Shown: positions 469 through 57,575 of the stretch, piece by piece | How positions within the stretch are numbered: the stretch's first letter is position 1 | Layout of the letters: every line of letters starts with the position of its first letter | Source of the DNA: a virus | Taxonomy: Duplodnaviria > Heunggongvirae > Uroviricota > Caudoviricetes | DNA length: 64,000 bases | Virus record (IMG/VR): IMGVR_UViG_3300037042_007115 | Direction: 5' to 3' (one strand) | Notes under the pieces: generated by a model | Databases searched by the model: none | What the model was told of the DNA's origin: nothing | What the model saw: only the letters and a program-made list of their open reading frames with translations | Made by a program: the position numbers and the translations under genes

Positions 469-875
469 TAGACTATGAAAAAGAACTTAAAAAACTGCCG
501 GAATATCAGGAGCAATATAAGGAACTTCAGAAAGAAATGAAGAAGCTAATAGGGCGGGCTACTAAACTTGAGGAAAAGATTATCGAACTTGAACGGATTT
601 CAGAAGTGTATCTTAAAGTGCCCTTGCATATTTCCTTCTCAAGTGATTATGCCCTTGATGTCGCCGACCTCAGCTACATCAGACATGCACATATCTATCA
701 TAATGCGACTGTACACTCTACCGTTGACAACTGGGGCCTTGAGATCGGAGCCAGAGAGGGGCTAGGACCTTTGGGAACGCACTGGTTGGGTACTGGTCAT
801 ACCAAAGTAGCAGCTATTAATATAGCTAAAGACTGGATTGCCCTGGGCACCTATCCTAAAGAACTTGATGATTAG
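465..875 (+). CDS. hypothetical protein with coiled-coil N-terminus
   Basis: 136-aa ORF; ATGA stop-start overlap with the upstream ORF; N-terminal KELKKLPEYQEQYKELQKEMKK heptad-like pattern. Confidence 0.4.
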   Translation: MIDYEKELKKLPEYQEQYKELQKEMKKLIGRATKLEEKIIELERISEVYLKVPLHISFSSDYALDVADLSYIRHAHIYHNATVHSTVDNWGLEIGAREGLGPLGTHWLGTGHTKVAAINIAKDWIALGTYPKELDD

Positions 876-923
876 CTAGCTTTATATGGTTTTACGCCAT
901 ATTTCTATGTATATAAAGGTGTC
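875..923 (+). promoter_or_regulatory. promoter-family copy A (TAGCTTTATATGG...TATGTATATAAAGGTG)
   Basis: One of five related ~40-50-bp elements immediately upstream of a start codon. TATA-like box plus AAGGTG Shine-Dalgarno. Confidence 0.5.
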
Positions 924-927
924 AAAA

Positions 928-1407
928 ATGGAGAATACAACCAACCCCTGCCCATATATCCCAGTTGATGGGATTGCGGCAGATAAAAACCACCCTGGTT
1001 TAGGAAGCTGCCGGACTTGTATAGGAATTTATGACTGCCCAACTCGCCTCCAGGAAACCTTCTATCCGAGGCCTAACCATACCTGGGAAGCCAAAGCTAC
1101 CTTTGAGTACGCTACCCTACTCTGGGTTAAAGAAATTCCGCCCATGAAAACACAGAGGGCCCGCTGGTGGCTCACTGTCTGGATAGGGGGCAGCGAGTTT
1201 GTAACAGACTGTGCAGAGAAAGAGGATGATTACAAGTGCGATGCTTCTGGCCGGTTTGCTGAGGAAGCAGCCAAGAAGCGGGCTCTTATGGATATGATAG
1301 AGGAATTATCCAGCTCGCTTATTGCTGCAGTATCTGTACCACACGGAATTAACTCGCTCACCTTGACAATTCTCAGGACAAAAGATGGTTCGGGAGCCTG
1401 GGGTTAA
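928..1407 (+). CDS. hypothetical Cys-rich protein (first gene behind promoter-family copy A)
   Basis: Track ORF is 886..1407. Start is placed at the ATG that follows the conserved AAAGGTGTCAAAAATG Shine-Dalgarno-like element shared with copy B. The protein has many Cys/His (CRTCIGIYDCP). Confidence 0.45.
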   Translation: MENTTNPCPYIPVDGIAADKNHPGLGSCRTCIGIYDCPTRLQETFYPRPNHTWEAKATFEYATLLWVKEIPPMKTQRARWWLTVWIGGSEFVTDCAEKEDDYKCDASGRFAEEAAKKRALMDMIEELSSSLIAAVSVPHGINSLTLTILRTKDGSGAWG

Positions 1408-1595
1408 TGTCAAACTCTGACAGCCCCAACTCTTGCCCCCAGTGTGGGAAAGCAGACCACATCAACTGGGTTGCCCCACTGGGCGACCTTTGGAGTGAGG
1501 TTCACAATCGCCGGGTCAACGCCCAGCTCTACCAGTGTGCCGACTGTAAATCCGTCTTCCCCTTCCCAGCTCTAGAGCCCTACGGGAGGTCTTAA
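1407..1595 (+). CDS. zinc-ribbon protein
   Basis: 62 aa with CPQCGK...CADCKS (two CxxC pairs); ATGA-type stop/start overlap. Confidence 0.4.
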   Translation: MSNSDSPNSCPQCGKADHINWVAPLGDLWSEVHNRRVNAQLYQCADCKSVFPFPALEPYGRS

Positions 1596-1597
1596 TC

Positions 1598-1837
1598 ATG
1601 GCTAAGAATTTTAGCCTAATGTTAAATGGGGAATCAATCCCAAGAATTTCTTATCTCCCAGTGGATGGTGTAGAGAAGATAGAGGCACTGATGGACAAGA
1701 TGGCTGAATTACTCCAGCAGGGAAAAATATTCCAGTTTACCCTTGTTCCACTCGACTACGGGAACCGCTCAACCCTTAAGATCCCCGGAGACTTCAATAG
1801 TACTCATGTTTGTATTACAGCAAGGGATGGTTATTAA
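1598..1837 (+). CDS. hypothetical protein
   Basis: 79-aa ORF with a GGAGG-like sequence upstream. Confidence 0.4.
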   Translation: MAKNFSLMLNGESIPRISYLPVDGVEKIEALMDKMAELLQQGKIFQFTLVPLDYGNRSTLKIPGDFNSTHVCITARDGY

Positions 1838-1839
1838 AT

Positions 1840-2115
1840 ATGGATATCTATAGGGAACTTGGTATACCTGCTCATCCGACCCAGAGGTATTTAACTGTGG
1901 TGGTTGAGCTAGGCTATTATGCCGTGATGGACATCCTTCAGCAACATGTTGCTCTGGATCATGGGATTAAAAAGAAGCAGGTTGAGGTTAATTCGATGGA
2001 TGGGAATGGCGGGAAAAGAACCCAGGTTCGTATCCCCCTATATTTGGCCGACTTTTCCGGGATAGGTAAAGTTCTCTATGACCTTGATGACAAGGAGGCT
2101 AATGACCCCCGTTGA
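1840..2115 (+). CDS. hypothetical protein
   Basis: Track ORF is 1810..2115. Internal ATG at 1840 (MDIYRELGIP...) is chosen because it lies just after the upstream stop. Confidence 0.35.
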   Translation: MDIYRELGIPAHPTQRYLTVVVELGYYAVMDILQQHVALDHGIKKKQVEVNSMDGNGGKRTQVRIPLYLADFSGIGKVLYDLDDKEANDPR

Positions 2116-2248
2116 AGAGACTAGAGCAGCTGCTTTGCAGGCAGCTTGCATTTGGTCTCAGGGTAAGCAAATTCCAGTAGAACTGGTTGTTGGTATTGCA
2201 GCAAAATATTTTTGGCCCTATATCAAGAATGGGAGTGTACAATAGATT

Positions 2249-2587
2249 ATGGTCCGTGACTTAGGCAGAATTACGCTAGGTGTATACCCCCGCAAGGTTG
2301 TGGGTAAAGATACATCTTTTGAATATGACTATGAAAATAAAGCCATTCTTCGTGGGCCCAAAAAGGGACGAATCTATCAGGAGAGAAAAAGGAATGGTAA
2401 GAAAACCATTTATCTTTATTTTGATGAGATTATTCCGGTTCTTCCCATAGGCAACCAAGATTATATTGCCCTTGACTCAGATGAGTATGAGTGCGAATTA
2501 ATTCACATCAAGAAAGGGACTACAATATTAGTTGGTATTGGTGAAACCCCAGGGGGACACCCGATAGTTGTTCATATAGGAGTATGA
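2249..2587 (+). CDS. hypothetical protein
   Basis: 112-aa ORF. Confidence 0.4.
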   Translation: MVRDLGRITLGVYPRKVVGKDTSFEYDYENKAILRGPKKGRIYQERKRNGKKTIYLYFDEIIPVLPIGNQDYIALDSDEYECELIHIKKGTTILVGIGETPGGHPIVVHIGV

Positions 2588-2664
2588 TCAATTACCCTGG
2601 GTTCTCCTTCATATAGTCTGACATCAATATTTTTTTAATTACCACCAATTGAGGTTTTCTTTAA

Positions 2665-3438
2665 ATGCAACCTTTTATCAATATGACCACACAAGATGGC
2701 CGCTGTATCCTAGGGGGTACTACTCGGGCTTGTATTGCAGATTGCATTGAGTGCAGTACTTACCAGCGGCATCTTAAAAAACTAGAGAAAACTCTAGTTT
2801 CTGAACAGCAAGATACAACTACTGTTGGAGATAAGATCTCTGGGGAACTTGTCTTTCGCTTTGATGCAATAGATATTACAGACTTTTTAAAATATCGTAG
2901 ATTAATCCGGGAGATTACTGGGTTCAAAGATAGAGTTAAGATGGCTTATTTTATGGTAGAAGAGCAAGCTCTTTTGAATTCTATACACCCAGAAAAGACT
3001 ATGCCTGCTCAAGGCTTAACCTTAGAAGAAAAGGAGGAAAAATTCCGGAAGCTTGTTCATCCAAACCCTAGTGGTAGTACGGGTAAGAAAATCAGTGTAG
3101 ATGTAACCTTCAGAAAAGACCGTTGTGATGATGGTAGGAGACTCCTTAGAGGCCAGCACCAAGAGCCTACCCTGGGAATTTATGGTGGACCAAAAGGTAA
3201 AGCTAGGACTTTCTGTATGACCTTCCCAGGCCCAGAGGAAGAAGTTATCAATGCTTATTTGAGAGCTTTTAAGTTGACCCGGGTTCCGCATCATGTTATC
3301 TTAGCAGGCTGGAAATTTTATCATCCATCCGTAATTATGCCTGGACAGATTGTCACGAAAGAGCCCGGGCAACAAGGGGGGATGGTAACTACCCCGGACC
3401 AGACTAATACCTCAACTAGAAAAGAATTTAAGGGATAA
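2665..3438 (+). CDS. hypothetical protein (257 aa)
   Basis: Long ORF preceded by an AT-rich region and GAGG; no recognisable domain. Confidence 0.5.
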   Translation: MQPFINMTTQDGRCILGGTTRACIADCIECSTYQRHLKKLEKTLVSEQQDTTTVGDKISGELVFRFDAIDITDFLKYRRLIREITGFKDRVKMAYFMVEEQALLNSIHPEKTMPAQGLTLEEKEEKFRKLVHPNPSGSTGKKISVDVTFRKDRCDDGRRLLRGQHQEPTLGIYGGPKGKARTFCMTFPGPEEEVINAYLRAFKLTRVPHHVILAGWKFYHPSVIMPGQIVTKEPGQQGGMVTTPDQTNTSTRKEFKG

Positions 3439-3458
3439 CTCCTCATTTTCTTTATATC

Positions 3459-3698
3459 ATGTCTGGCACACGCCGTATCTACAACCGGGCCAAGCAGTGG
3501 TTCAAAGTCCAGATCACTAGCTGGGCTGATGGGTATGAAGATGGAATGTTCAGCCTAAGGCACTGGGGTCTCCACCCATACAAGCAGTATGATACCTTTC
3601 ACTGCCATTGCAGTTGGTGCAGGCCTAAATCATATGAACACGGTTCACTGAGGGTACAGCACAAGGCTGAGATCCGCAGGGAATTGGCAAACCTCTAA
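3459..3698 (+). CDS. hypothetical protein with His/Cys cluster (HCHCSWC)
   Basis: 79-aa ORF. Confidence 0.4.
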   Translation: MSGTRRIYNRAKQWFKVQITSWADGYEDGMFSLRHWGLHPYKQYDTFHCHCSWCRPKSYEHGSLRVQHKAEIRRELANL

Positions 3699-3715
3699 TT
3701 TCTGCTTTTTTGGTT

Positions 3716-3753
3716 AGATATATATGTTTTAGCGTAGCATAGCTATGTATACA
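3716..3753 (+). promoter_or_regulatory. promoter-family copy B (ATATATGTTTTAGCGTAGCATAGCTATGTATACA)
   Basis: Shares GTTTWRCG...AGCATAG.TATGTATA...AAGGTG with copies A and C-E. Confidence 0.5.
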
Positions 3754-3764
3754 AAGGTGTCAAA

Positions 3765-3971
3765 ATGGAAAACTCACTCAACGTAAATAATAGCCGGGTC
3801 TTTGTCCCCTGTGTCTTACCCGGGTTCACTCCCTGTGACCACCGCTGTGTTGCTACTGGTAGGCCTTCAGAAAATGTAATGCGGGTTGAAGTCTGGTGTA
3901 TGTGCTGGCGAGAAAACCACTCAAAGGATAAGGTATTCCACCACTGCGAGAAGGAGTTTAAGGTTGGTTAA
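3765..3971 (+). CDS. hypothetical Cys-rich protein (behind promoter-family copy B)
   Basis: 68 aa. Starts right after the conserved CAAAGGTGTCAAAATG element. N-terminus MEN... resembles the copy-A gene. Confidence 0.45.
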   Translation: MENSLNVNNSRVFVPCVLPGFTPCDHRCVATGRPSENVMRVEVWCMCWRENHSKDKVFHHCEKEFKVG

Positions 3972-50177: not shown

Positions 50178-50393
50178 TCAGGGTGCATGTGTGTCAGCTT
50201 CCGCGGTGGTTCGATAAGTGTCATTCTTATACCAGGCGCGAAGTTTGGTAGAATAGACTGCACCTTCTTCAATTTTTTTCTTGCTCATATTAATTCCATG
50301 GTGACAGCCACAGTTTGGGCACCACGCGTCTTTTCTACTTTTTGTATACTGGTGCCCACATAAAAGGCATTCAGTTTTGTGTTTGGGCTCCAT
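50178..50393 (-). CDS. zinc-ribbon small protein
   Basis: 71 aa with CLLCGH...CPNCGCHHG. Confidence 0.35.
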   Translation of the reverse strand: MEPKHKTECLLCGHQYTKSRKDAWCPNCGCHHGINMSKKKIEEGAVYSTKLRAWYKNDTYRTTAEADTHAP

Positions 50394-50700
50394 CCTTCAC
50401 CCCTTTAAGCTGTTCAATCTTCTTTGCTAAGTAGTCACCATGACACCGTTCGGGAGAGCACCAACATCCAAGTCTTTTAGCATTAAGTAGGTCACTGATA
50501 TTTACTTCCCCCATATCTATTCGTTGTTCTATGTAGATTTCATACTTATCAAGTACTGTATCTCTACTTTCTCGACTAGAAATATGGAAGGGGTTAGCCC
50601 AAGCACTTCCTGGGAAGTTTCTAAACTCTCTTCCAATGTAAATATCACCAATTCTCTTTCCAAAATCTTTGCAGCGTGAAATGTTTATTACTTCTATCAT
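50371..50700 (-). CDS. DUF4326-family protein
   Basis: ANPFHI...GCWCSPERCHGDYL matches the conserved CWC.P..CH.D block of DUF4326. Confidence 0.5.
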   Translation of the reverse strand: MIEVINISRCKDFGKRIGDIYIGREFRNFPGSAWANPFHISSRESRDTVLDKYEIYIEQRIDMGEVNISDLLNAKRLGCWCSPERCHGDYLAKKIEQLKGVKDGAQTQN

Positions 50701-51546: not shown

Positions 51547-54500
51547 TCATTCACTCCCCCAATCCCCGAAGTGTGTATCTGTTACAATGGGTACTGTAAG
51601 ATTCACCCCCAACTTGGCCAATAGTGGCGGACACTCTATGAGCTTCTTTATCTCGGGTAGAAGTTTATCTGCTATATCATCACGTATTTCCATAAGGATA
51701 GCATCATGAATAGTTCCTACGATGTTTAATACATCCTTTCCATAGGTCGTACTTAGTGCAACCACAGCCATCATCGTCATATCACTTGCAAATCCCTGAA
51801 CAGGCGCGTTTATTGAGTTGCGTTCTGCCTGTGCACGTACTCCCTCATCGGGTGACATAATCTCCGGCAGGTGTCTAATACGCCCATCAAGGCATTTTAC
51901 CTGTCCATACTGCCTTACCATCACTTTTTGCCGCTGGTGCCACTTTGGAAGCTCAGAATAGGTTTCAAAGAACCTCTGTCTAAATGCGGTAGCTTCCTCT
52001 ATTGTGAGGTCCGTTTCATATTTATCCCGGGCGTATTCCTGGAACTTCTTCTCCCGCATGCCGTAAAGGAACCCAAAATTACAGTTTCCCTGTATTCCCA
52101 CTTTATTGTCTCTTCTTATAACGATATTTTCTGCCTGGACTTGTACACAATATGCCATATGACTGCCGGGTATCTTTTGGAAGCTTAGGTGTGTTCTCGA
52201 GTCGAGTCGTCCGCCGGGCCTATAGGTAATTTTGTACCCCTCAGTTCTTTTCTTATCTCTAGGGGGCATAACATATAGTACTGCTCGTGTCCCAGAAGTA
52301 CAGGCCATAGCTTGCATTATATCCGCACTTTGTCGAACATGTGTAGTAAATTTTGTATATTTTTGAGCAAATTTTTCACTTGACCAAGAGTCCCAGTAAG
52401 CTGCTTCATCGAGATAAACTATTGCCGGGATGTCTGTTAGGCAGGACCAGGAGAGATTTTTATTATCATCAAGATACGGCTTTATCATCCCCATAATTTT
52501 CGGTGAGTTCATTTCAAAGATAGTTGCTCCATCAGCCCTTGTTCTACGGGTATAACTTACCCCATAGGCATCTAGAAGTTGTTTACATCTGTCTATTTTG
52601 TGCTGCTTTTTAAACCCAAATCTAAGGCGGGTGTGGTCTTTAAATGACCCATCAGCTGCGATCATAGCTAAGATTCGAGTTTCAGTTTCTGTTAGTTTAT
52701 ACTCCGTTCTTTTAAGGAGCCCAGCAGAGAATAGATAAGTATTTTGAGGAACTGAATCTGCGCGCCTCTTCTCTACACGTTCCGTGTTCCTATTGAAATA
52801 CAAAATTTCGTGATCTGCTGTTACTAATAGATCATTATTTCTATCTATGAAACTATACAGCTCTCTATTATTTTGGGATTGAAAAGCTATAGGCTTAGTA
52901 AACGATATTTCTTGCGTTTCTTGGAAATACTGCGCTACTTCATCTGTGCCATTATATTTATCAAATCTTACCCAACCGGCTTTTGTGAGTATTTCAGTAT
53001 CCCCTGAGAAGCATGCCTTGGCTTTCTTTCGCTCATCCTTAGTAATTAGCTCAGGGGGTTTTCCAGTGATAAGGGAAGCTGTCTTCCGGTGTATGTCGCC
53101 CTTCGGGTCATTGAAGATACCTATCATTGTTGGGTCCCCGCTTACCATAGCTGCTATCCTAAGCTCAACTTGGGAGTAATCACACTCTAATAGTCTCCAT
53201 CCTGGTGGGGCGCCTATAAGAGTTCTAATCTTTTTGTCACGTGGAACCTGCTGGAGGTTAGGGTCACTACATGAATTATGAACACAGAGCTCATTTGCTA
53301 TAAAATTATGCGTATCTTCTACCTCTATATCATACACAGGGAAGATTCCCGGTAGTTTCTCCACATAAGTAATCATATGATTCTGGGGCTTGGGCTTGGC
53401 GTTATCTGGTAGTTTGGCCAGTGTTCGGGTCCTACCATAAACTACTCTAGCTTCCTTAGTTTTACTTACAGTTTCCCCAGTAAAATGTAAATAGTTATAA
53501 TCACCGCGTGACCTATGCAGGGCCATAACATGCTCCCCATGATGATATCGTTTTCTCCATTTGATATATTTTCCCCCCGCTAGATCTTCTACTTTGATAT
53601 AACTTCCGGAGGTTAACCGAATTGGGTGGTTCCCTGTAGCATCCAGAAAACCCTCAGTATGCCCCCCTTGCCCCACCCAATGCACTCTATAACAGGGCTT
53701 GCTGCCCGTAAGCCCAGAACTCTTGACTTTTTTCAAAGTTAACTTTAATTCATCATCAAACGAATATACTAAGTCTCCCGTCTTTATATCTTGGATGGGC
53801 CTAGTTCCACCCGGTATCATGACTTCTGTACCTTCTCTTAAGCAGAGTCTGCCAGTAACGGTCCCGTGCAGCTTAAAGTTAGGATGTAGTCTTTCGTGCG
53901 GACCTAAGAATTTCTTCCACCCCTCAATAAAGCTCGATACCTGCTTAGCCAGCTCCCTATGTTTGAGTAATAAATCAATTCCTTCGTGTTGACCTTTCAG
54001 TCGTTGAAGAATACCTTCTGCAGTAGAGGGTGCACCAGACTTAGTAAGTTCTAATGGTACCAACTTCCAATCCTCGAATAAGATCTTACCAACCTGCTTA
54101 GGACTGTTCCAGTTTACCCCAGGAGCCATAGCCTCTAGTTTATCATGTACCTCAGCGAGTTCAGCTTTAAGGACAATTTCCAGTGCGGCTAGACGCTCTT
54201 TATGGACGAATACGCCATGACACTCAATATCTTCAAAGGCTTCAAACGCCGGCATAATAAGGAACTTAAAAAGCTTAAGGAGATCAGCATTCTTCATTAA
54301 CTGACCACGCTGCATTTTATATAACCTGAGAGTGTACAAAACATCATAGCCACAATACTCATACATCTTCTCTAGGTCTGGGCCTTGTCCTCTTTTATCT
54401 TCAGATGAGATATCATAAGCTGGAGCATTAAGATGAACCTTAGCCAGATACTTTAGGCCACATGGCTCATTCTCATTCAAGATATGGGCTGCCATCATGG

Positions 54501-55419
54501 TATCAAAAGTAATTGGGAACCTAATATCATAGTGTACCCGGAGCCACCTATTATCAAACTTCCCATTCTGAGTGACAATCTTCTTGCCTTTCATCATAAG
54601 TAAGATTTCTTGGAGGCCTTCCTTCATGCCACCTTTAGTCTTGAAGATAAGATTCTCACCAGACATAGGCAGCACCCACTGTCTCTCCTGTGTCAGCTCA
54701 TTATCCGCATATCTGGAGATGCCCAAACAGTTAATATCTGCGCCTTCTTCTCTCGGGTCTAAACAAGTGGTTTCTAAGTCAAAGCCAATTACTGGGCAGT
54801 CTTTGAGGTCATGCAGCATTTCTTTGAACTGCTCTACATTTCTTATGATAGTAAGGTTTAAGCCGGTACTAGGCTTCCAGGTACCATTGATTATTTCAAA
54901 GAACTTTTTCATATCTGATTTAAGCGGGGCTTCTTTCTTTGGATCCCGGAGTGCTGCAGCTGGATGAAATGCAGGTAAGTATGTTATACCCTCTTTTTCA
55001 ATAGGAACCCCATGAATATCCATAATCCCGCTGGCTCCTTTGCCTAAGACGCCTTTTAAGGCTACCGCACCCATAACAATGATGAATTTAGGTTTAACCT
55101 CATCTATTTCTCTTTGAAGATGCACCTTACATGCTTTAATTTCAGCTTGTGTAGGAGATTCATTTTCAGGTGCAGAACAGTGAATTAAATGAGTCAAATA
55201 AAGGGTATCTCTACTTACTCCATTCTCCATCAAAATTCGGTCTAGGAGTCGCCCGGCATTTCCGGGGAAGGGTTTTGTAAGCTCTGATTTATAATTAGTG
55301 GGTGCCTCCCCTATTATCATAACATTACAGGGGGTAGGGCCCTGGCCCATAACGCATACTAACGGGGAACTTGCATACCGGGTGCAAAGTTTGCAACTTG
55401 AATCTCCAAAAACAGGCAT
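51547..55419 (-). CDS. family-A DNA polymerase with N-terminal family-4 UDG-like domain and 3'-5' exonuclease domain, interrupted by two inteins
   Basis: UDG-like region: CKLC Fe-S Cys pair, GEAPT (GE[AG]PG-like motif A), F.GNAGRLL, HPAAALR (HPSxxLR-like motif B). Exonuclease motif I IGFDLETT. PolA pre-motif A TGRL//SCSDPNLQQVP. Motif A CDYSQVELRIAA. Motif B RKKAKA//CNFGFLYG. Motif C IHDAIL (HDA rather than HDE). Confidence 0.9.
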   Translation of the reverse strand: MPVFGDSSCKLCTRYASSPLVCVMGQGPTPCNVMIIGEAPTNYKSELTKPFPGNAGRLLDRILMENGVSRDTLYLTHLIHCSAPENESPTQAEIKACKVHLQREIDEVKPKFIIVMGAVALKGVLGKGASGIMDIHGVPIEKEGITYLPAFHPAAALRDPKKEAPLKSDMKKFFEIINGTWKPSTGLNLTIIRNVEQFKEMLHDLKDCPVIGFDLETTCLDPREEGADINCLGISRYADNELTQERQWVLPMSGENLIFKTKGGMKEGLQEILLMMKGKKIVTQNGKFDNRWLRVHYDIRFPITFDTMMAAHILNENEPCGLKYLAKVHLNAPAYDISSEDKRGQGPDLEKMYEYCGYDVLYTLRLYKMQRGQLMKNADLLKLFKFLIMPAFEAFEDIECHGVFVHKERLAALEIVLKAELAEVHDKLEAMAPGVNWNSPKQVGKILFEDWKLVPLELTKSGAPSTAEGILQRLKGQHEGIDLLLKHRELAKQVSSFIEGWKKFLGPHERLHPNFKLHGTVTGRLCLREGTEVMIPGGTRPIQDIKTGDLVYSFDDELKLTLKKVKSSGLTGSKPCYRVHWVGQGGHTEGFLDATGNHPIRLTSGSYIKVEDLAGGKYIKWRKRYHHGEHVMALHRSRGDYNYLHFTGETVSKTKEARVVYGRTRTLAKLPDNAKPKPQNHMITYVEKLPGIFPVYDIEVEDTHNFIANELCVHNSCSDPNLQQVPRDKKIRTLIGAPPGWRLLECDYSQVELRIAAMVSGDPTMIGIFNDPKGDIHRKTASLITGKPPELITKDERKKAKACFSGDTEILTKAGWVRFDKYNGTDEVAQYFQETQEISFTKPIAFQSQNNRELYSFIDRNNDLLVTADHEILYFNRNTERVEKRRADSVPQNTYLFSAGLLKRTEYKLTETETRILAMIAADGSFKDHTRLRFGFKKQHKIDRCKQLLDAYGVSYTRRTRADGATIFEMNSPKIMGMIKPYLDDNKNLSWSCLTDIPAIVYLDEAAYWDSWSSEKFAQKYTKFTTHVRQSADIMQAMACTSGTRAVLYVMPPRDKKRTEGYKITYRPGGRLDSRTHLSFQKIPGSHMAYCVQVQAENIVIRRDNKVGIQGNCNFGFLYGMREKKFQEYARDKYETDLTIEEATAFRQRFFETYSELPKWHQRQKVMVRQYGQVKCLDGRIRHLPEIMSPDEGVRAQAERNSINAPVQGFASDMTMMAVVALSTTYGKDVLNIVGTIHDAILMEIRDDIADKLLPEIKKLIECPPLLAKLGVNLTVPIVTDTHFGDWGSE
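52084..53013 (-). mobile_element. intein 2 (310 aa) with LAGLIDADG-type homing-endonuclease domain, inserted in PolA motif B
   Basis: Residues 803-1112: N-terminal CFSGDTEILTKAG (block A), ILAMIAADGSF (LAGLIDADG), C-terminal ...VGIQGN, with +1 Cys. Removing it restores RKKAKACNFGFLYG. Codon-level check: the Cys-1 codon TGC lies at 53011..53013 on the - strand. Confidence 0.7.
53275..53844 (-). mobile_element. mini-intein 1 (190 aa) inserted within the PolA TGRL|SS motif
   Basis: Residues 526-715: N-terminal CLREGTEVMIPGG (block A), GFLDATGNHPI (block B, T..H), C-terminal VYDIEVEDTHNFIANELCVHN, with +1 Ser. No endonuclease domain. Removing it restores TGRLSCSDPNLQQVP. Confidence 0.75.
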
Positions 55420-56118: not shown

Positions 56119-56391
56119 TTAGTCTCCTACTGCCTCTATTACTAAATTTCCGTCTAGTTTTCCTTTCGGAAATATAGTATTTGATTCATAGAAAAAGATT
56201 TTATCTCCATCTACAATCTGTAGCACGGGAGCTTCTACAGCAAAACAGCCCTCTACTCGAAGATCAGTGATAGCTGCCGGTTCTTCCATGTTAGCCTCTG
56301 TGAAGGCCATTTCAGCACCACCTAAGAAGCTCTTCAGTTCATCACACCTTGGGCAGCAGGGCAAGGAATAAACAGTAATTTTTCTTATCAT
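56119..56391 (-). CDS. glutaredoxin/NrdH-like thioredoxin-fold protein
   Basis: ITVYSLPCCPRCDELKSFL carries a CPxC redox motif in thioredoxin-fold context. Confidence 0.5.
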   Translation of the reverse strand: MIRKITVYSLPCCPRCDELKSFLGGAEMAFTEANMEEPAAITDLRVEGCFAVEAPVLQIVDGDKIFFYESNTIFPKGKLDGNLVIEAVGD

Positions 56392-57575
56392 GATCCACCT
56401 GAACCGTTGATTTCTCCACTAGGGATTAAAAATCCCCCCGTTTGGATAGTGGGGTAGGGGTCAAGCAGGAGTTTCCACTTATCAGTCTTATACCCTAAGG
56501 TACTGGCGATAAGTGTCCCGGGAAAATAAGCTGTAGCTCCCATATATTCACGAACAGCTAAATTATACTCTGCCCGTATATAGGGGTTTTCAGGATCTTG
56601 GGCAAGCTGACTTGCTACCTTAAGTACTTCCGCATCTTTAGCATAGATAGTATCATAGGTATAGATGAAACTCATACCTATAACAAGCAGTAGTGCTGCA
56701 ATTATTACCATTGCTAAATATGATCGGTTACTAGCACTAATGTTTACCATGATCCTACCCATACCGGGGAATTCACAGTTTTCAATTTCAGAGGCAGCAT
56801 CAGACAGATCTTGGGCTAGTTGCTCAAGCTCATCAGCAAAGCTATTGAGGTCTTTCCCATCATATTCCGGGAATGAGAGGTTATCCAGGGTGCTCACGGC
56901 ATTCTCAAGTGTGTCTGCTGTCTCACTTACCGTCTGCATTTTGTCGGTGTTCTCAAGGTTGGTGCCCTGAACATTGTCACTCCAGCTTCTCATCTCATCC
57001 GCAAGGTCCTGGACCTCACTGGTAGAGAAGGCTTCATCGAAGAGTGTGCTGATTCGTGAGATTTCCTCATCAATATCCTCAGCAAGTTGTTCAAAGTCTG
57101 CTCCGTCCTCTTCATCTTGAGAGTCAGCTTCCGGCTCAGTTGCTGGCACAGTTTCAGGTTTTACTTCTGGTTCTGGTTCCTCTTCTGTTTCTTCATCTTC
57201 AAGTTGCTTTGCAAGTTCTCGAAGCGTAGAAACTGCTCCATCTAGTTCTTCCCCAAGCATTGTGAGGGCGCCTGCTGCATCTGCTGCGCGTGAAGCACGG
57301 CTGTGGCTTTTCTTTTTCCGTCGCTTCCTCTTCTTTTTCTCCTCAGATACTGGAGCTTCTTGGGTTATTAGTTCCGGGGTAGCTTCTGGCCTCGGGGGTT
57401 TGACATATCCTAAAGCATCTAGCTTATCCCGTACTGTGTTTAGTTCATCCAAGATTGCCTCTTCATTTTCCTGCATCTGGGGCGTTCCGGCATTCTGGTT
57501 CACATTAAGTTTAAAGGCGGCGACTAGTTCGGCCTCTAACTTTAAGAGTTCTTCAATTGTGTTTGGTAGTTCCAT
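56388..57575 (-). CDS. acidic coiled-coil protein with polybasic patch and one TM helix
   Basis: 395 aa. EEKKKRKRRKKKSHSR patch, long Asp/Glu-rich region, TM helix YLAMVIIAALLLVIGMSFIY. Confidence 0.45.
   Translation of the reverse strand: MELPNTIEELLKLEAELVAAFKLNVNQNAGTPQMQENEEAILDELNTVRDKLDALGYVKPPRPEATPELITQEAPVSEEKKKRKRRKKKSHSRASRAADAAGALTMLGEELDGAVSTLRELAKQLEDEETEEEPEPEVKPETVPATEPEADSQDEEDGADFEQLAEDIDEEISRISTLFDEAFSTSEVQDLADEMRSWSDNVQGTNLENTDKMQTVSETADTLENAVSTLDNLSFPEYDGKDLNSFADELEQLAQDLSDAASEIENCEFPGMGRIMVNISASNRSYLAMVIIAALLLVIGMSFIYTYDTIYAKDAEVLKVASQLAQDPENPYIRAEYNLAVREYMGATAYFPGTLIASTLGYKTDKWKLLLDPYPTIQTGGFLIPSGEINGSGGS

What the first reader, a model, noticed from the sequence alone, without database searches (positions are those of the whole stretch)
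52084..53844. Two inteins interrupt the polymerase at its most conserved catalytic motifs
A 190-aa mini-intein (Cys-1, VHN C-terminus, +1 Ser) sits exactly inside TGRL|SS-DPNLQ. A 310-aa intein with an ILAMIAADGSF LAGLIDADG motif sits inside motif B (RKKAKA|C-NFGFLYG). Together the inteins account for about 500 of the 1290 residues. The second intein ends GN rather than HN, so it has lost the penultimate His. This suggests an atypical splicing mechanism. The exonuclease and UDG-like region is intein-free.
Basis: seen in the sequence. Interest (0 to 1): 0.7.

Follow-up and report, generated by a model that had tools for sequence, protein, structure and literature searches.

The report
Two inteins in phage DNA polymerase
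A phage DNA polymerase gene is interrupted by two real self-splicing protein elements (inteins), but both belong to intein types already described, including the "unusual" Gly-Asn ending, so this is a clean but fairly ordinary example.

Summary
ORF 51547..55419 (-) encodes a 1290-aa UDG4 / 3'-5' exonuclease / family A polymerase precursor. It carries a 190-aa intein (53275..53844) at TGRL|SCSDPNLQ and a 310-aa intein (52084..53013) at KAKA|CNFGFLYG. Removing both gives 790 aa, the length of intein-free alleles found in metagenomes. The spliced product aligns to Klenow without gaps across both junctions.

Intein 1 is a canonical class 1 intein. Its relatives at the same site carry an in-frame HNH nuclease, and this copy has lost it through a clean 116-aa deletion.

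Intein 2 has an apparently intact two-motif LAGLIDADG endonuclease. It belongs to a very large phage intein family in which Cys1, a block F Cys (F:4) and a Gly-Asn C-terminus are nearly invariant. The "lost" penultimate His is therefore a family trait. Two characterised relatives lack it and still splice: the mycobacteriophage Bethlehem RDF intein and the AceL NrdHF class 3 split intein. In both, putting His back impairs splicing.

What remains open is whether the conserved F:4 Cys acts as a nucleophile here, as it does in AceL NrdHF. Verdict: real, a new member of known kinds, moderate-to-low interest.

The parts
51547..55419 (-). Precursor ORF, 1290 aa: family 4 UDG + 3'-5' exonuclease + family A DNA polymerase, interrupted by two inteins (stop codon 51547-51549)
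54922..55347 (-). UDG family 4 domain (aa 25-166), uninterrupted
   Evidence: PF03167 E=5.5e-24; TIGR00758 123.9 bits against a cutoff of 125.3
54316..54849 (-). 3'-5' exonuclease domain (aa 191-368), uninterrupted
   Evidence: PF01612 E=2.5e-18
53845..54198 (-). Polymerase extein segment 1 (aa 408-525), ending ...HGTVTGRL (Klenow R668-L669 equivalent)
53275..53844 (-). Intein 1, 190 aa. Canonical class 1 mini-intein with Cys1 (53842-53844), block B DATGNHP, block F VYDIEVEDTHNF and a C-terminal VHN. The +1 Ser (53272-53274) is the native extein residue
53434..53439 (-). Deletion scar inside intein 1, between intein aa 136 (Y) and 137 (G). Relatives have 116 aa here carrying the HNH nuclease motif and a helical domain
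   Evidence: Alignment with the inteins of P0003/P0009/P0010/P0011; HMM match split at aa 661|662
53014..53274 (-). Polymerase extein segment 2 (aa 716-802): SCSDPNLQQVP ... motif A DYSQVELR ... DERKKAKA (first half of the O-helix)
52084..53013 (-). Intein 2, 310 aa. HINT domain split by a LAGLIDADG endonuclease. Key residues: Cys1 (53011-53013), block B T65/H68, block F Cys289 (52147-52149), C-terminal Gly309-Asn310 (52084-52089). The +1 Cys (52081-52083) replaces the Val/Ile of intein-free alleles
52219..52701 (-). LAGLIDADG homing endonuclease domain of intein 2 (intein aa ~105-265). The motif helices end at D121 (ILAMIAADG) and D208 (YLDEAAYWD)
   Evidence: AF2 helices 109-121 and 197-208; Foldseek match to I-DmoI and to PI-SceI/PI-PfuI/TliVMA; family conservation D121 148/152, D208 147/152, K185 143/152, Q234 135/152
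51550..52083 (-). Polymerase extein segment 3 (aa 1113-1290): CNFGFLYG (second half of the O-helix; Klenow F762 and Y766 equivalents) through motif C (IHDAIL) to the C-terminus

Best explanation
The gene encodes a phage replicative family A DNA polymerase precursor that must remove two independent inteins to become active.

Intein 1 sits between the equivalents of Klenow L669 and S670. It is a canonical class 1 intein. Cys1 makes the thioester, the native Ser+1 takes over the N-extein, and His-Asn drives succinimide formation. It descends from an in-frame HNH homing-endonuclease intein and has lost the nuclease by a 116-aa in-frame deletion. It can still splice but can no longer home on its own.

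Intein 2 sits in the O-helix between the A759 and I760 equivalents. It is a full-length LAGLIDADG intein of the large phage family that also contains the Bethlehem RDF intein and the AceL NrdHF intein. The most likely mechanism is as follows. Cys1 starts splicing, because it is invariant in the family. The invariant block F Cys289 is an essential active-site partner and possibly an acyl relay. Cys+1 receives the N-extein. Asn310 cyclises without a penultimate His, as in the tested relatives. The LAGLIDADG domain cuts intein-free polymerase alleles at the KAKA|VNFG coding site and spreads the element by homing.

Shown here: the anatomy, the homology, the restoration of the extein, the existence of intein-free and single-intein alleles, and purifying selection. 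Inferred: actual splicing, endonuclease activity, and the order in which the nucleophiles act.
For: Excision restores one continuous DNA_pol_A match and a 790-aa product equal in length to intein-free alleles. It also restores a gap-free alignment to Klenow over both junctions.

Intein 1: TIGR01443 is above its cutoff, PF14890 is above its cutoff for the whole protein, and there are PDB mini-intein hits. Inteins at the same site in P0003/P0009/P0010/P0011 are 67-77% identical and carry PF13392 HNH_3. The window copy lacks exactly the 116 aa that contain the HH..N..H motif.

Intein 2: there are 3738 homologous representatives. In 152 family inteins the conservation is Cys1 152/152, T65 148, H68 152, Cys289 150, Gly309 142, Asn310 133 (Gln 17), and +1 Cys/Ser/Thr 151. 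The AF2 model has pLDDT 89.4 and matches intein-plus-LAGLIDADG structures. The Bethlehem RDF intein scores 142.5 bits against the family HMM; it splices completely and its endonuclease is toxic in E. coli (PMC5050341). The family HINT profile matches AceL NrdHF (6zgq) at E=1.1e-15 over its full length.

Selection: pN is far below pS in both inteins. Intein 1 HINT 0.068 vs 0.71; intein 2 HINT 0.20 vs 0.83; intein 2 endonuclease 0.29 vs 0.72.

Homing-cycle traces: P0002 carries only intein 2. P0003 carries only intein 1, plus a Cys at the empty intein 2 site, which is unique among 114 intein-free motif B sites.

Context: a phage replication module with helicase, exonuclease and Sak4-like protein.
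Against: No experiment exists on this protein. Intein 2 is weak against curated intein profiles (PF14890 E=0.007, TIGR01445 E=0.084, LAGLIDADG_3 E=0.052).

The AF2 model of intein 1 is poor (pLDDT 48.8, residues 89-156 unstructured). Correct folding after the HNH deletion is therefore not shown.

Intein 2 has Glu at block B:11, where AceL NrdHF uses Arg69 to compensate for the missing penultimate His (PMC7891396). The residue that assists Asn cyclisation here is unknown.

Synonymous sites are saturated, so the selection estimate is only qualitative.
Confidence: 0.85

Rival explanations
1. Intein 2 splices by a class 3-like or relay route. Block F Cys289, not only Cys1, forms a covalent thioester branch with the N-extein before transfer to Cys+1. 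On this reading, the Cys1-bearing family represents the class 1-like stock from which the AceL NrdHF class 3 intein arose.
For: Cys289 is conserved in 150/152 family members. It aligns with Cys124 of AceL NrdHF, which is the proven branch-point nucleophile (PMC7891396). The family shares that intein's VP.G kink motif and (T/Q/S)-G-N ending. Block G:5 is Thr in 61/152 members. [quoted passage not shown]
Against: Cys1 is invariant (152/152), which is not expected if it were dispensable. The class 3 signature Trp at B:12 is not among the six commonest residues at that position; C/M/I/V/L/Q account for at least 147 of 152, and the window has Ile. The window has Gln, not Thr, at G:5. Kelley et al. 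treat the Bethlehem RDF relative as class 1. Cys is the second most common F:4 residue among inteins overall (PMC4031507). Solved WCT class 3 inteins were not among the PDB hits of the family profile at E<=0.01.
Confidence: 0.3
2. One or both inteins are splicing-dead relics. The polymerase gene would then be a pseudogene, or the phage would rely on another polymerase.
For: Intein 1 has suffered a large internal deletion and its structure model is poor. Intein 2 lacks the penultimate His.
Against: The 3873-nt frame is open throughout. All splicing residues of both inteins are intact. pN is far below pS in both. The HINT part of intein 1 is more conserved than the extein (pN 0.068 vs 0.177). 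Relatives with Gly-Asn splice well.
Confidence: 0.05
3. The insertions are not inteins but lineage-specific polymerase insertions or other Hint-type domains (for example bacterial intein-like domains) that stay in the mature enzyme or only cleave.
For: Nothing specific. Curated-profile scores for intein 2 alone are below the cutoffs.
Against: Both have a Cys1, a terminal Asn and a +1 nucleophile. They are placed precisely inside invariant motifs. Close alleles lack them precisely. The same intein families occur in unrelated host proteins: RNR alpha and beta, phosphoesterase, GTP cyclohydrolase and peptidase M15. An O-helix broken by 310 residues could not bind dNTP (inference from the Klenow alignment).
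Confidence: 0.01

Closest known systems
Mycobacteriophage Bethlehem RDF (phosphoesterase, gp51/gp52) intein (Kelley et al. 2016, PMC5050341)
   Same: Same intein family as intein 2 (family HMM 142.5 bits, E=1e-45). Shared features: Cys1, block B T..H, block F (V)WC(L)xVP.G, a ...TGN C-terminus with penultimate Gly, and a LAGLIDADG endonuclease of about 315 aa. Shown to splice completely; Gly->His slows splicing.
   Different: The host protein is a metallophosphoesterase rather than PolA. The +1 residue is Ser rather than Cys. Block B:11 is Arg rather than Glu, and G:5 is Thr rather than Gln.
AceL NrdHF naturally split class 3 intein (PDB 6ZGQ; Hoffmann et al. 2020, PMC7891396)
   Same: Best solved-structure match of the family's HINT domain (E=1.1e-15, full length), with co-linear numbering (S65/H68/M70 vs T65/H68/I70). 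Also shares the Cys at F:4, the VP.G kink, the Gly-Asn ending and the absence of both C-terminal catalytic His residues.
   Different: It has Ala1 instead of Cys1. It is split into two genes with a GIY-YIG endonuclease gene between them rather than carrying an in-frame LAGLIDADG domain. It lies in an RNR beta subunit, and it has a proven class 3 mechanism.
In-frame HNH-endonuclease inteins of phages (Dalgaard et al. 1997; actinobacteriophage survey, bioRxiv 10.1101/2025.01.02.630785)
   Same: The relatives of intein 1 at the same PolA site (P0003, P0009-P0011) have this rare architecture: a HINT domain with an HNH_3 insert.
   Different: The window copy has lost the HNH core and the following helical domain (116 aa). 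It is now a mini-intein with a remnant linker of about 68 aa.
Canonical class 1 mini-inteins (e.g. Spl DnaX, Ssp/Npu DnaB mini-inteins)
   Same: Intein 1 has the same catalytic set (Cys1, T..H, block F Asp, His-Asn). Its block F/G region matches Spl DnaX (E=3.9e-5).
   Different: It is about 50 aa longer because of the endonuclease remnant. It lies in PolA, and its +1 residue is Ser.
Multi-intein replication proteins (archaeal PolB with pol-a/b/c inteins; M. smegmatis DnaB with two inteins, PMC6195587; PMC4760082)
   Same: Several inteins of different type sit in the conserved motifs of one replication enzyme. Novikova et al. list DNA polymerase I among intein hosts.
   Different: Here the host is a phage UDG-exo-PolA fusion. 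Among the 120 best homologs only this protein carries two inteins.

Membership tests
Intein (both elements) | In-frame insertion whose removal restores a contiguous conserved host protein; intein-free alleles exist | tested here: met
Intein (both elements) | N-terminal Cys/Ser, block B T..H, C-terminal Asn, and Cys/Ser/Thr at +1 | tested here: met
   Intein 1: C1, T70..H73, N190, S+1. Intein 2: C1, T65..H68, N310, C+1
Intein (both elements) | HINT fold | tested here: inconclusive
   Met for intein 2 (AF2 pLDDT 89.4; Foldseek hits to PI-SceI, PI-PfuI, TliVMA and 6zgq). The intein 1 model is too poor to judge (pLDDT 48.8); only sequence-profile evidence is available
Intein (both elements) | Protein splicing actually occurs | not testable with these tools
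   Needs expression and mass spectrometry. The only support is from relatives (PMC5050341, PMC7891396)
Class 1 intein | Nucleophile at position 1 that starts splicing | tested here: met
   Cys1 is present in both inteins and invariant in intein 2's family (152/152). Whether it is the first nucleophile in intein 2 is not testable here
Class 1 intein (canonical form) | Penultimate His (G:6) | tested here: not met
   Intein 1 has His189. Intein 2 has Gly309, as do 142/152 family members. This residue is common but not strictly defining (PMC4031507, PMC7664689)
Class 3 intein | No Cys/Ser/Thr at position 1 | tested here: not met
   Intein 2 starts with Cys
Class 3 intein | WCT triplet: Trp B:12, Cys F:4, Thr G:5 | tested here: not met
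   Intein 2 has Ile70, Cys289 and Gln308, so only the Cys is present. AceL NrdHF, a proven class 3 intein, has MCT
Bethlehem RDF / AceL NrdHF-like intein family (C...T..H...YC.VP.G...R.nGK..(T/Q/S)GN) | Significant full-length sequence homology plus the shared motif set | tested here: met
LAGLIDADG homing endonuclease (intein 2 insert) | Two LAGLIDADG helices each ending in an acidic residue, in an alpha-beta-beta-alpha-beta-beta-alpha pseudo-dimer fold | tested here: met
   Helices 109-121 (D121) and 197-208 (D208); Foldseek match to I-DmoI E~5e-6; residues conserved across the family. The Pfam LAGLIDADG_3 hit alone is only E=0.052
LAGLIDADG homing endonuclease (intein 2 insert) | Cleaves the intein-free allele | not testable with these tools
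   A candidate target is available: the P0004 allele, L002
HNH homing endonuclease (intein 1 insert) | HNH catalytic motif | tested here: not met
   The motif is present in P0003/P0009-P0011 and deleted in the window copy. No other copy was found in the window
Family A DNA polymerase (extein) | Continuous match to the DNA_pol_A profile with motifs A and B and the motif C Asp | tested here: met
   296.8 bits after excision. DYSQVELR, RKKAKACNFGFLYG and IHDAIL are present. Klenow E=8.5e-56. Note that motif C reads HDA, not HDE

The most novel reading that the evidence does not exclude
Intein 2 represents a very large, mostly phage-borne intein family that keeps both the class 1 nucleophile (Cys1) and the class 3 nucleophile (block F Cys) under near-absolute conservation. 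In this reading the family uses an obligatory two-thiol relay: Cys1 thioester, then Cys F:4 branch, then Cys+1. It would be the living intermediate from which class 3-type splicing (AceL NrdHF) evolved by loss of Cys1. That would make a class 3-type mechanism polyphyletic and derived from class 1, not from a protease lineage.
Probability: 0.25. Interest if true: 0.6.

Novelty: new member of a known kind. Interest (0 to 1): 0.35.

Why it matters
For genome annotation, the polymerase of this roughly 178-kb phage contig is a 790-aa enzyme, not a 1290-aa one, and a metagenome source labels it only as "uracil-DNA glycosylase family 4".

For intein biology, the locus and its relatives show several homing-cycle stages in one gene family. 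These are empty sites, a site with a Cys "footprint", a full HNH intein, an HNH-deleted mini-intein, and a LAGLIDADG intein that looks active.

The wider point is that the Gly-Asn ending and the block F Cys define a very large phage intein family. That family links a "class 1" intein (Bethlehem RDF) with a proven class 3 intein (AceL NrdHF). This makes the class 1 to class 3 transition testable with simple point mutants.

Fast-splicing relatives of this family are also candidates for protein-ligation tools.

Tried and rejected
(1) A near-identity DNA search of the gene against 50,697 phage records found nothing, so there is no close cultured relative.

(2) The search for homologous proteins with intein 1 alone returned no hits. 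Its relatives came only from the full-length search.

(3) The AlphaFold model of intein 1, built on a 5-sequence alignment, was too poor to use (pLDDT 48.8). No fold search was run on it.

(4) I considered that intein 2 might be a degenerate copy that had lost its His. I rejected this because Gly is the family consensus and because His impairs two tested relatives.

(5) I considered filing intein 2 as class 3. I rejected this because Cys1 is present and invariant, and because two of the three WCT positions are not met.

(6) I looked for a salt-bridge swap between block B:11 (Arg/Glu) and Arg300. There is none, since Arg300 is almost invariant whatever the B:11 residue.

(7) I looked for microhomology at the HNH deletion junction and found nothing convincing.

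(8) I scanned all six frames of the window with HMMs of both intein families and found no further copies and no free-standing HNH.

(9) The paper by Tori & Perler 2011 on class 3 inteins with Ser1/Cys1 is not held in the library. Its content is used only as cited by other papers.

(10) Literature searches for inteins at these PolA sites found only a general statement that DNA polymerase I hosts inteins.
Full report
OBSERVATION. The region lies inside one long ORF on the minus strand, 51547..55419, of 1290 aa. Pfam and NCBIfam find a family 4 uracil-DNA glycosylase domain (aa 25-166), a 3'-5' exonuclease domain (aa 191-368) and a family A polymerase domain. The polymerase domain is matched in three separate stretches. 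Intein 1 is aa 526-715 (190 aa, window 53275..53844), reading ...HGTVTGRL|CLREGTEV...NELCVHN|SCSDPNLQQVP. Intein 2 is aa 803-1112 (310 aa, window 52084..53013), reading ...DERKKAKA|CFSGDTEILT...NKVGIQGN|CNFGFLYG. Together they make 500 of the 1290 residues.

Removing both inserts in silico gives a 790-aa protein. Its DNA_pol_A match becomes a single stretch over profile positions 2-377 of 381, and the score rises from 252.7 to 296.8 bits. The spliced polymerase domain aligns to the Klenow fragment (E=8.5e-56) with no gap at either junction: vtgrlscsdpnlqqvp against ATGRLSSTDPNLQNIP, and derkkakacnfgflyg against EQRRSAKAINFGLIYG. With the Klenow chain offset, intein 1 lies between L669 and S670, directly after R668. 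Intein 2 lies between A759 and I760, inside the O-helix between K758 and F762/Y766; the residue roles come from established knowledge of Pol I. Public metagenomes hold intein-free alleles of 789-790 aa (P0004-P0007, 72-81% identity) with the two motifs uninterrupted, and the DNA junctions are clean to the codon. The motifs interrupted are therefore highly conserved functional motifs, but not the carboxylate motifs A (DYSQVELR) and C (IHDAIL).

INTEIN 1. It has the full canonical class 1 set: Cys1, block B DATGNHP, block F VYDIEVEDTHNF, and a C-terminal His-Asn followed by Ser. That Ser is the native extein residue, since intein-free alleles read TGRLSC. TIGR01443 (intein C-terminal region) scores 30.3 bits against a cutoff of 15.6, and the Spl DnaX mini-intein is the best PDB sequence hit.

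Four homologous polymerases (P0003, P0009, P0010, P0011) carry an intein at the same site. These inteins are 67-77% identical to intein 1 but 298-306 aa long. The extra segment holds an HNH motif (PEHIHHKDGNKLNDAIENL...DH; Pfam HNH_3) and a helical domain. The window copy lacks exactly these 116 residues, between ...EARVVY and GRTRTL.... So the "mini-intein" is a homing intein that has lost its nuclease by a clean in-frame deletion.

Its splicing domain is under strong purifying selection. Against P0003, pN is 0.068 and pS is 0.71, so it is more conserved than the extein, whose pN is 0.177. The AlphaFold model was poor (pLDDT 48.8, shallow alignment). Correct folding is therefore inferred from conservation, not shown.

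INTEIN 2. Curated profiles barely see it, but three lines of evidence show it is a genuine intein.

First, an exhaustive profile-free search finds 3738 cluster representatives at E<=1e-3 and 1475 at E<=1e-10.

Second, the AlphaFold model built on a 14-sequence alignment is confident (pLDDT 89.4, pTM 0.88). Over its full length it matches the LAGLIDADG-bearing inteins TliVMA, PI-PfuI and PI-SceI (top hits E=9e-16 to about 1e-12). Its middle domain matches I-DmoI, and its HINT part matches PDB 6ZGQ.

Third, in 152 family inteins extracted from the best 150 hits the splicing residues are almost invariant: Cys1 152/152, Thr65 148, His68 152, Asn310 133 (Gln 17), and +1 Cys 111 / Ser 32 / Thr 8.

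A second one, VYLDEAAYWDS, is helix 197-208. The two acidic residues D121 and D208 are conserved in 148 and 147 of 152 members, as are K185 (143) and Q234 (135). The endonuclease therefore looks intact. Its pN (0.29) is well below pS (0.72) against P0002.

THE GLY-ASN ENDING. The penultimate residue is Gly in 142 of 152 family members and His in 2. It is therefore a family character and not a loss in this copy.

Two family members have been studied. The mycobacteriophage Bethlehem RDF/phosphoesterase intein scores 142.5 bits (E=1e-45) against my family HMM. It reads EGNHD|CSWTN...TANHR...VWCLRVPNG...HLTGN|S, with Gly316 penultimate. Kelley et al. showed that it splices to completion, that G316H slows splicing, and that its endonuclease is toxic in E. 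coli. They also noted that class 1 mycobacteriophage inteins often replace this His with Gly, Lys or Ser (PMC5050341).

The second is the AceL NrdHF split intein. A profile of the family's HINT domain with the endonuclease cut out matches it over the whole length at E=1.1e-15. The next hit is at 1.8e-7 and covers only the N-terminal part. In that intein G145H abolishes activity, and Arg69 (block B:11) partly replaces the missing His (PMC7891396).

Splicing without the penultimate His is long established (Chen, Benner & Perler 2000, cited in PMC4031507; PMC7664689).

WHAT IS MECHANISTICALLY OPEN. The family has a second near-invariant cysteine, Cys289 in ...AYCVQV..., present in 150/152 members. 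In the profile alignment it falls on Cys124 of AceL NrdHF (Ala in the crystallised mutant). Cys124 is the block F:4 branch-point nucleophile that defines the class 3 mechanism of that intein. The family also shares that intein's VP.G kink and its (T/Q/S)-Gly-Asn ending, and block G:5 is Thr in 61/152.

Against class 3 membership, Cys1 is invariant. In addition, block B:12 is Cys/Met/Ile/Val/Leu/Gln in at least 147 of 152 members, with Trp not among the six commonest residues, and the window intein has Ile70 and Gln308. Cys is also the second most common F:4 residue in inteins generally (PMC4031507).

My reading is that Cys1 starts the reaction (about 0.7). Cys289 is an essential partner, and it may or may not carry the acyl group (about 0.3 for a covalent role). 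The helper of Asn cyclisation is unknown here, because the window intein has Glu69 where AceL NrdHF has Arg69. The invariant Arg300 is a candidate by inference only.

HOMING-CYCLE CONTEXT. Among the 120 best polymerase homologs only seven are long enough to hold inteins, and only the window protein (= P0001, from a 178-kb JGI contig) holds two. P0002 (81% extein identity) has only intein 2, which also ends IQGN|C. P0003 has only the HNH form of intein 1, but it has Cys (TGT) at the empty intein 2 site, where 113 other intein-free homologs have Val or Ile. This is best explained as the footprint of a precise intein loss.

P0008 has a third, LAGLIDADG_2-type intein inside the UDG domain, before the invariant Cys81. 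The same intein 2 family also occupies other PolA sites: motif B shifted by one residue, DPN|xQNIP, and TGR(W/L/F)|S. It is found in many other proteins as well, including RNR subunits of Staphylococcus and Tenacibaculum phages.

Intein 2 has diverged more than its extein (61.5% vs 81.1% aa identity to P0002). Intein 1 has diverged less than its extein (76.7% vs 75.0% aa; 74.6% vs 68.0% nt against P0003). Neighbouring genes (helicase, PD-(D/E)XK exonuclease, Sak4-like protein, DUF4326) and the synteny of the related contigs indicate a phage replication module.

COMPARISON WITH THE KNOWN, AND VERDICT. Inteins in phage replication genes, DNA polymerase I as an intein host (PMC4760082), in-frame HNH inteins, mini-inteins formed by endonuclease loss, LAGLIDADG inteins, and Gly-Asn endings are all described.

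This locus is a well-documented new member of those kinds. It carries an uncommon combination: two unrelated inteins in one PolA. It also gives a useful pointer to the Cys1 + Cys F:4 + Gly-Asn family, which links a "class 1" phage intein with a proven class 3 intein. Interest is moderate to low (0.35). The most novel reading not excluded is a two-thiol relay and a class 1 to class 3 intermediate, to which I give a probability of about 0.25.

Noticed in passing
P0003 / L001 (gene 724-3879), motif B codon TGT after GCTAAAGCG: This homolog has no intein at the motif B site but has Cys at the +1 position (KAKA-CNFGFLYG). The other 113 intein-free homologs among the 120 best have Val (81) or Ile (32). 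It is probably the footprint of a precise loss of an intein 2-type element.
   Followed up: partly
P0008 (alignment A1, columns ~111-472): A close homolog (about 70% identity) carries a third intein of about 360 aa inside the UDG domain (..VMH|CLHGAT...GGIVHN|CAAPEN). It has a LAGLIDADG_2 domain and uses the invariant Cys81 as +1. The polymerase family therefore has at least three intein sites.
   Followed up: partly
window ~51700-51720 (-), protein aa 1238-1240 (IHDAIL): Polymerase motif C reads H-D-A instead of the usual H-D-E. The equivalent of Klenow E883 is Ala, and H1238/D1239 are invariant with A1240 nearly invariant in the 13 aligned homologs. This is an unusual active-site variant for a family A polymerase.
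   Followed up: no
window 51547..55419 (-), N-terminal 180 aa: The polymerase is fused to a family 4 UDG domain whose score sits just under the TIGR00758 cutoff (123.9 vs 125.3 bits). More than 400 metagenomic proteins share the UDG-exo-PolA architecture, and JGI names some of them only 'uracil-DNA glycosylase family 4'.
   Followed up: partly
Family of intein 2 (proteins P0133-P0281): 17 of 152 family inteins end in Gln instead of Asn (for example ...TGQ|C at the PolA DPN|xQNIP site). Several proteins carry two or more inteins of this family. In P0204 two family inteins abut directly (..FITGN|CYSEDTEILT).
   Followed up: no
window 50371..50700 (-) and relatives L001 3882-4331, L002 3162-3920: A conserved DUF4326 gene lies downstream of the polymerase in the window (109 aa, phrog_464) and in the related contigs L001 and L002. 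Its function is unknown.
   Followed up: no
window 56388..57575 (-): A 395-aa ORF upstream of the polymerase is very acidic and of low complexity (runs of E/D, plus a KKKRKRRKKK stretch), with a C-terminal hydrophobic segment. It has no PHROG match.
   Followed up: no
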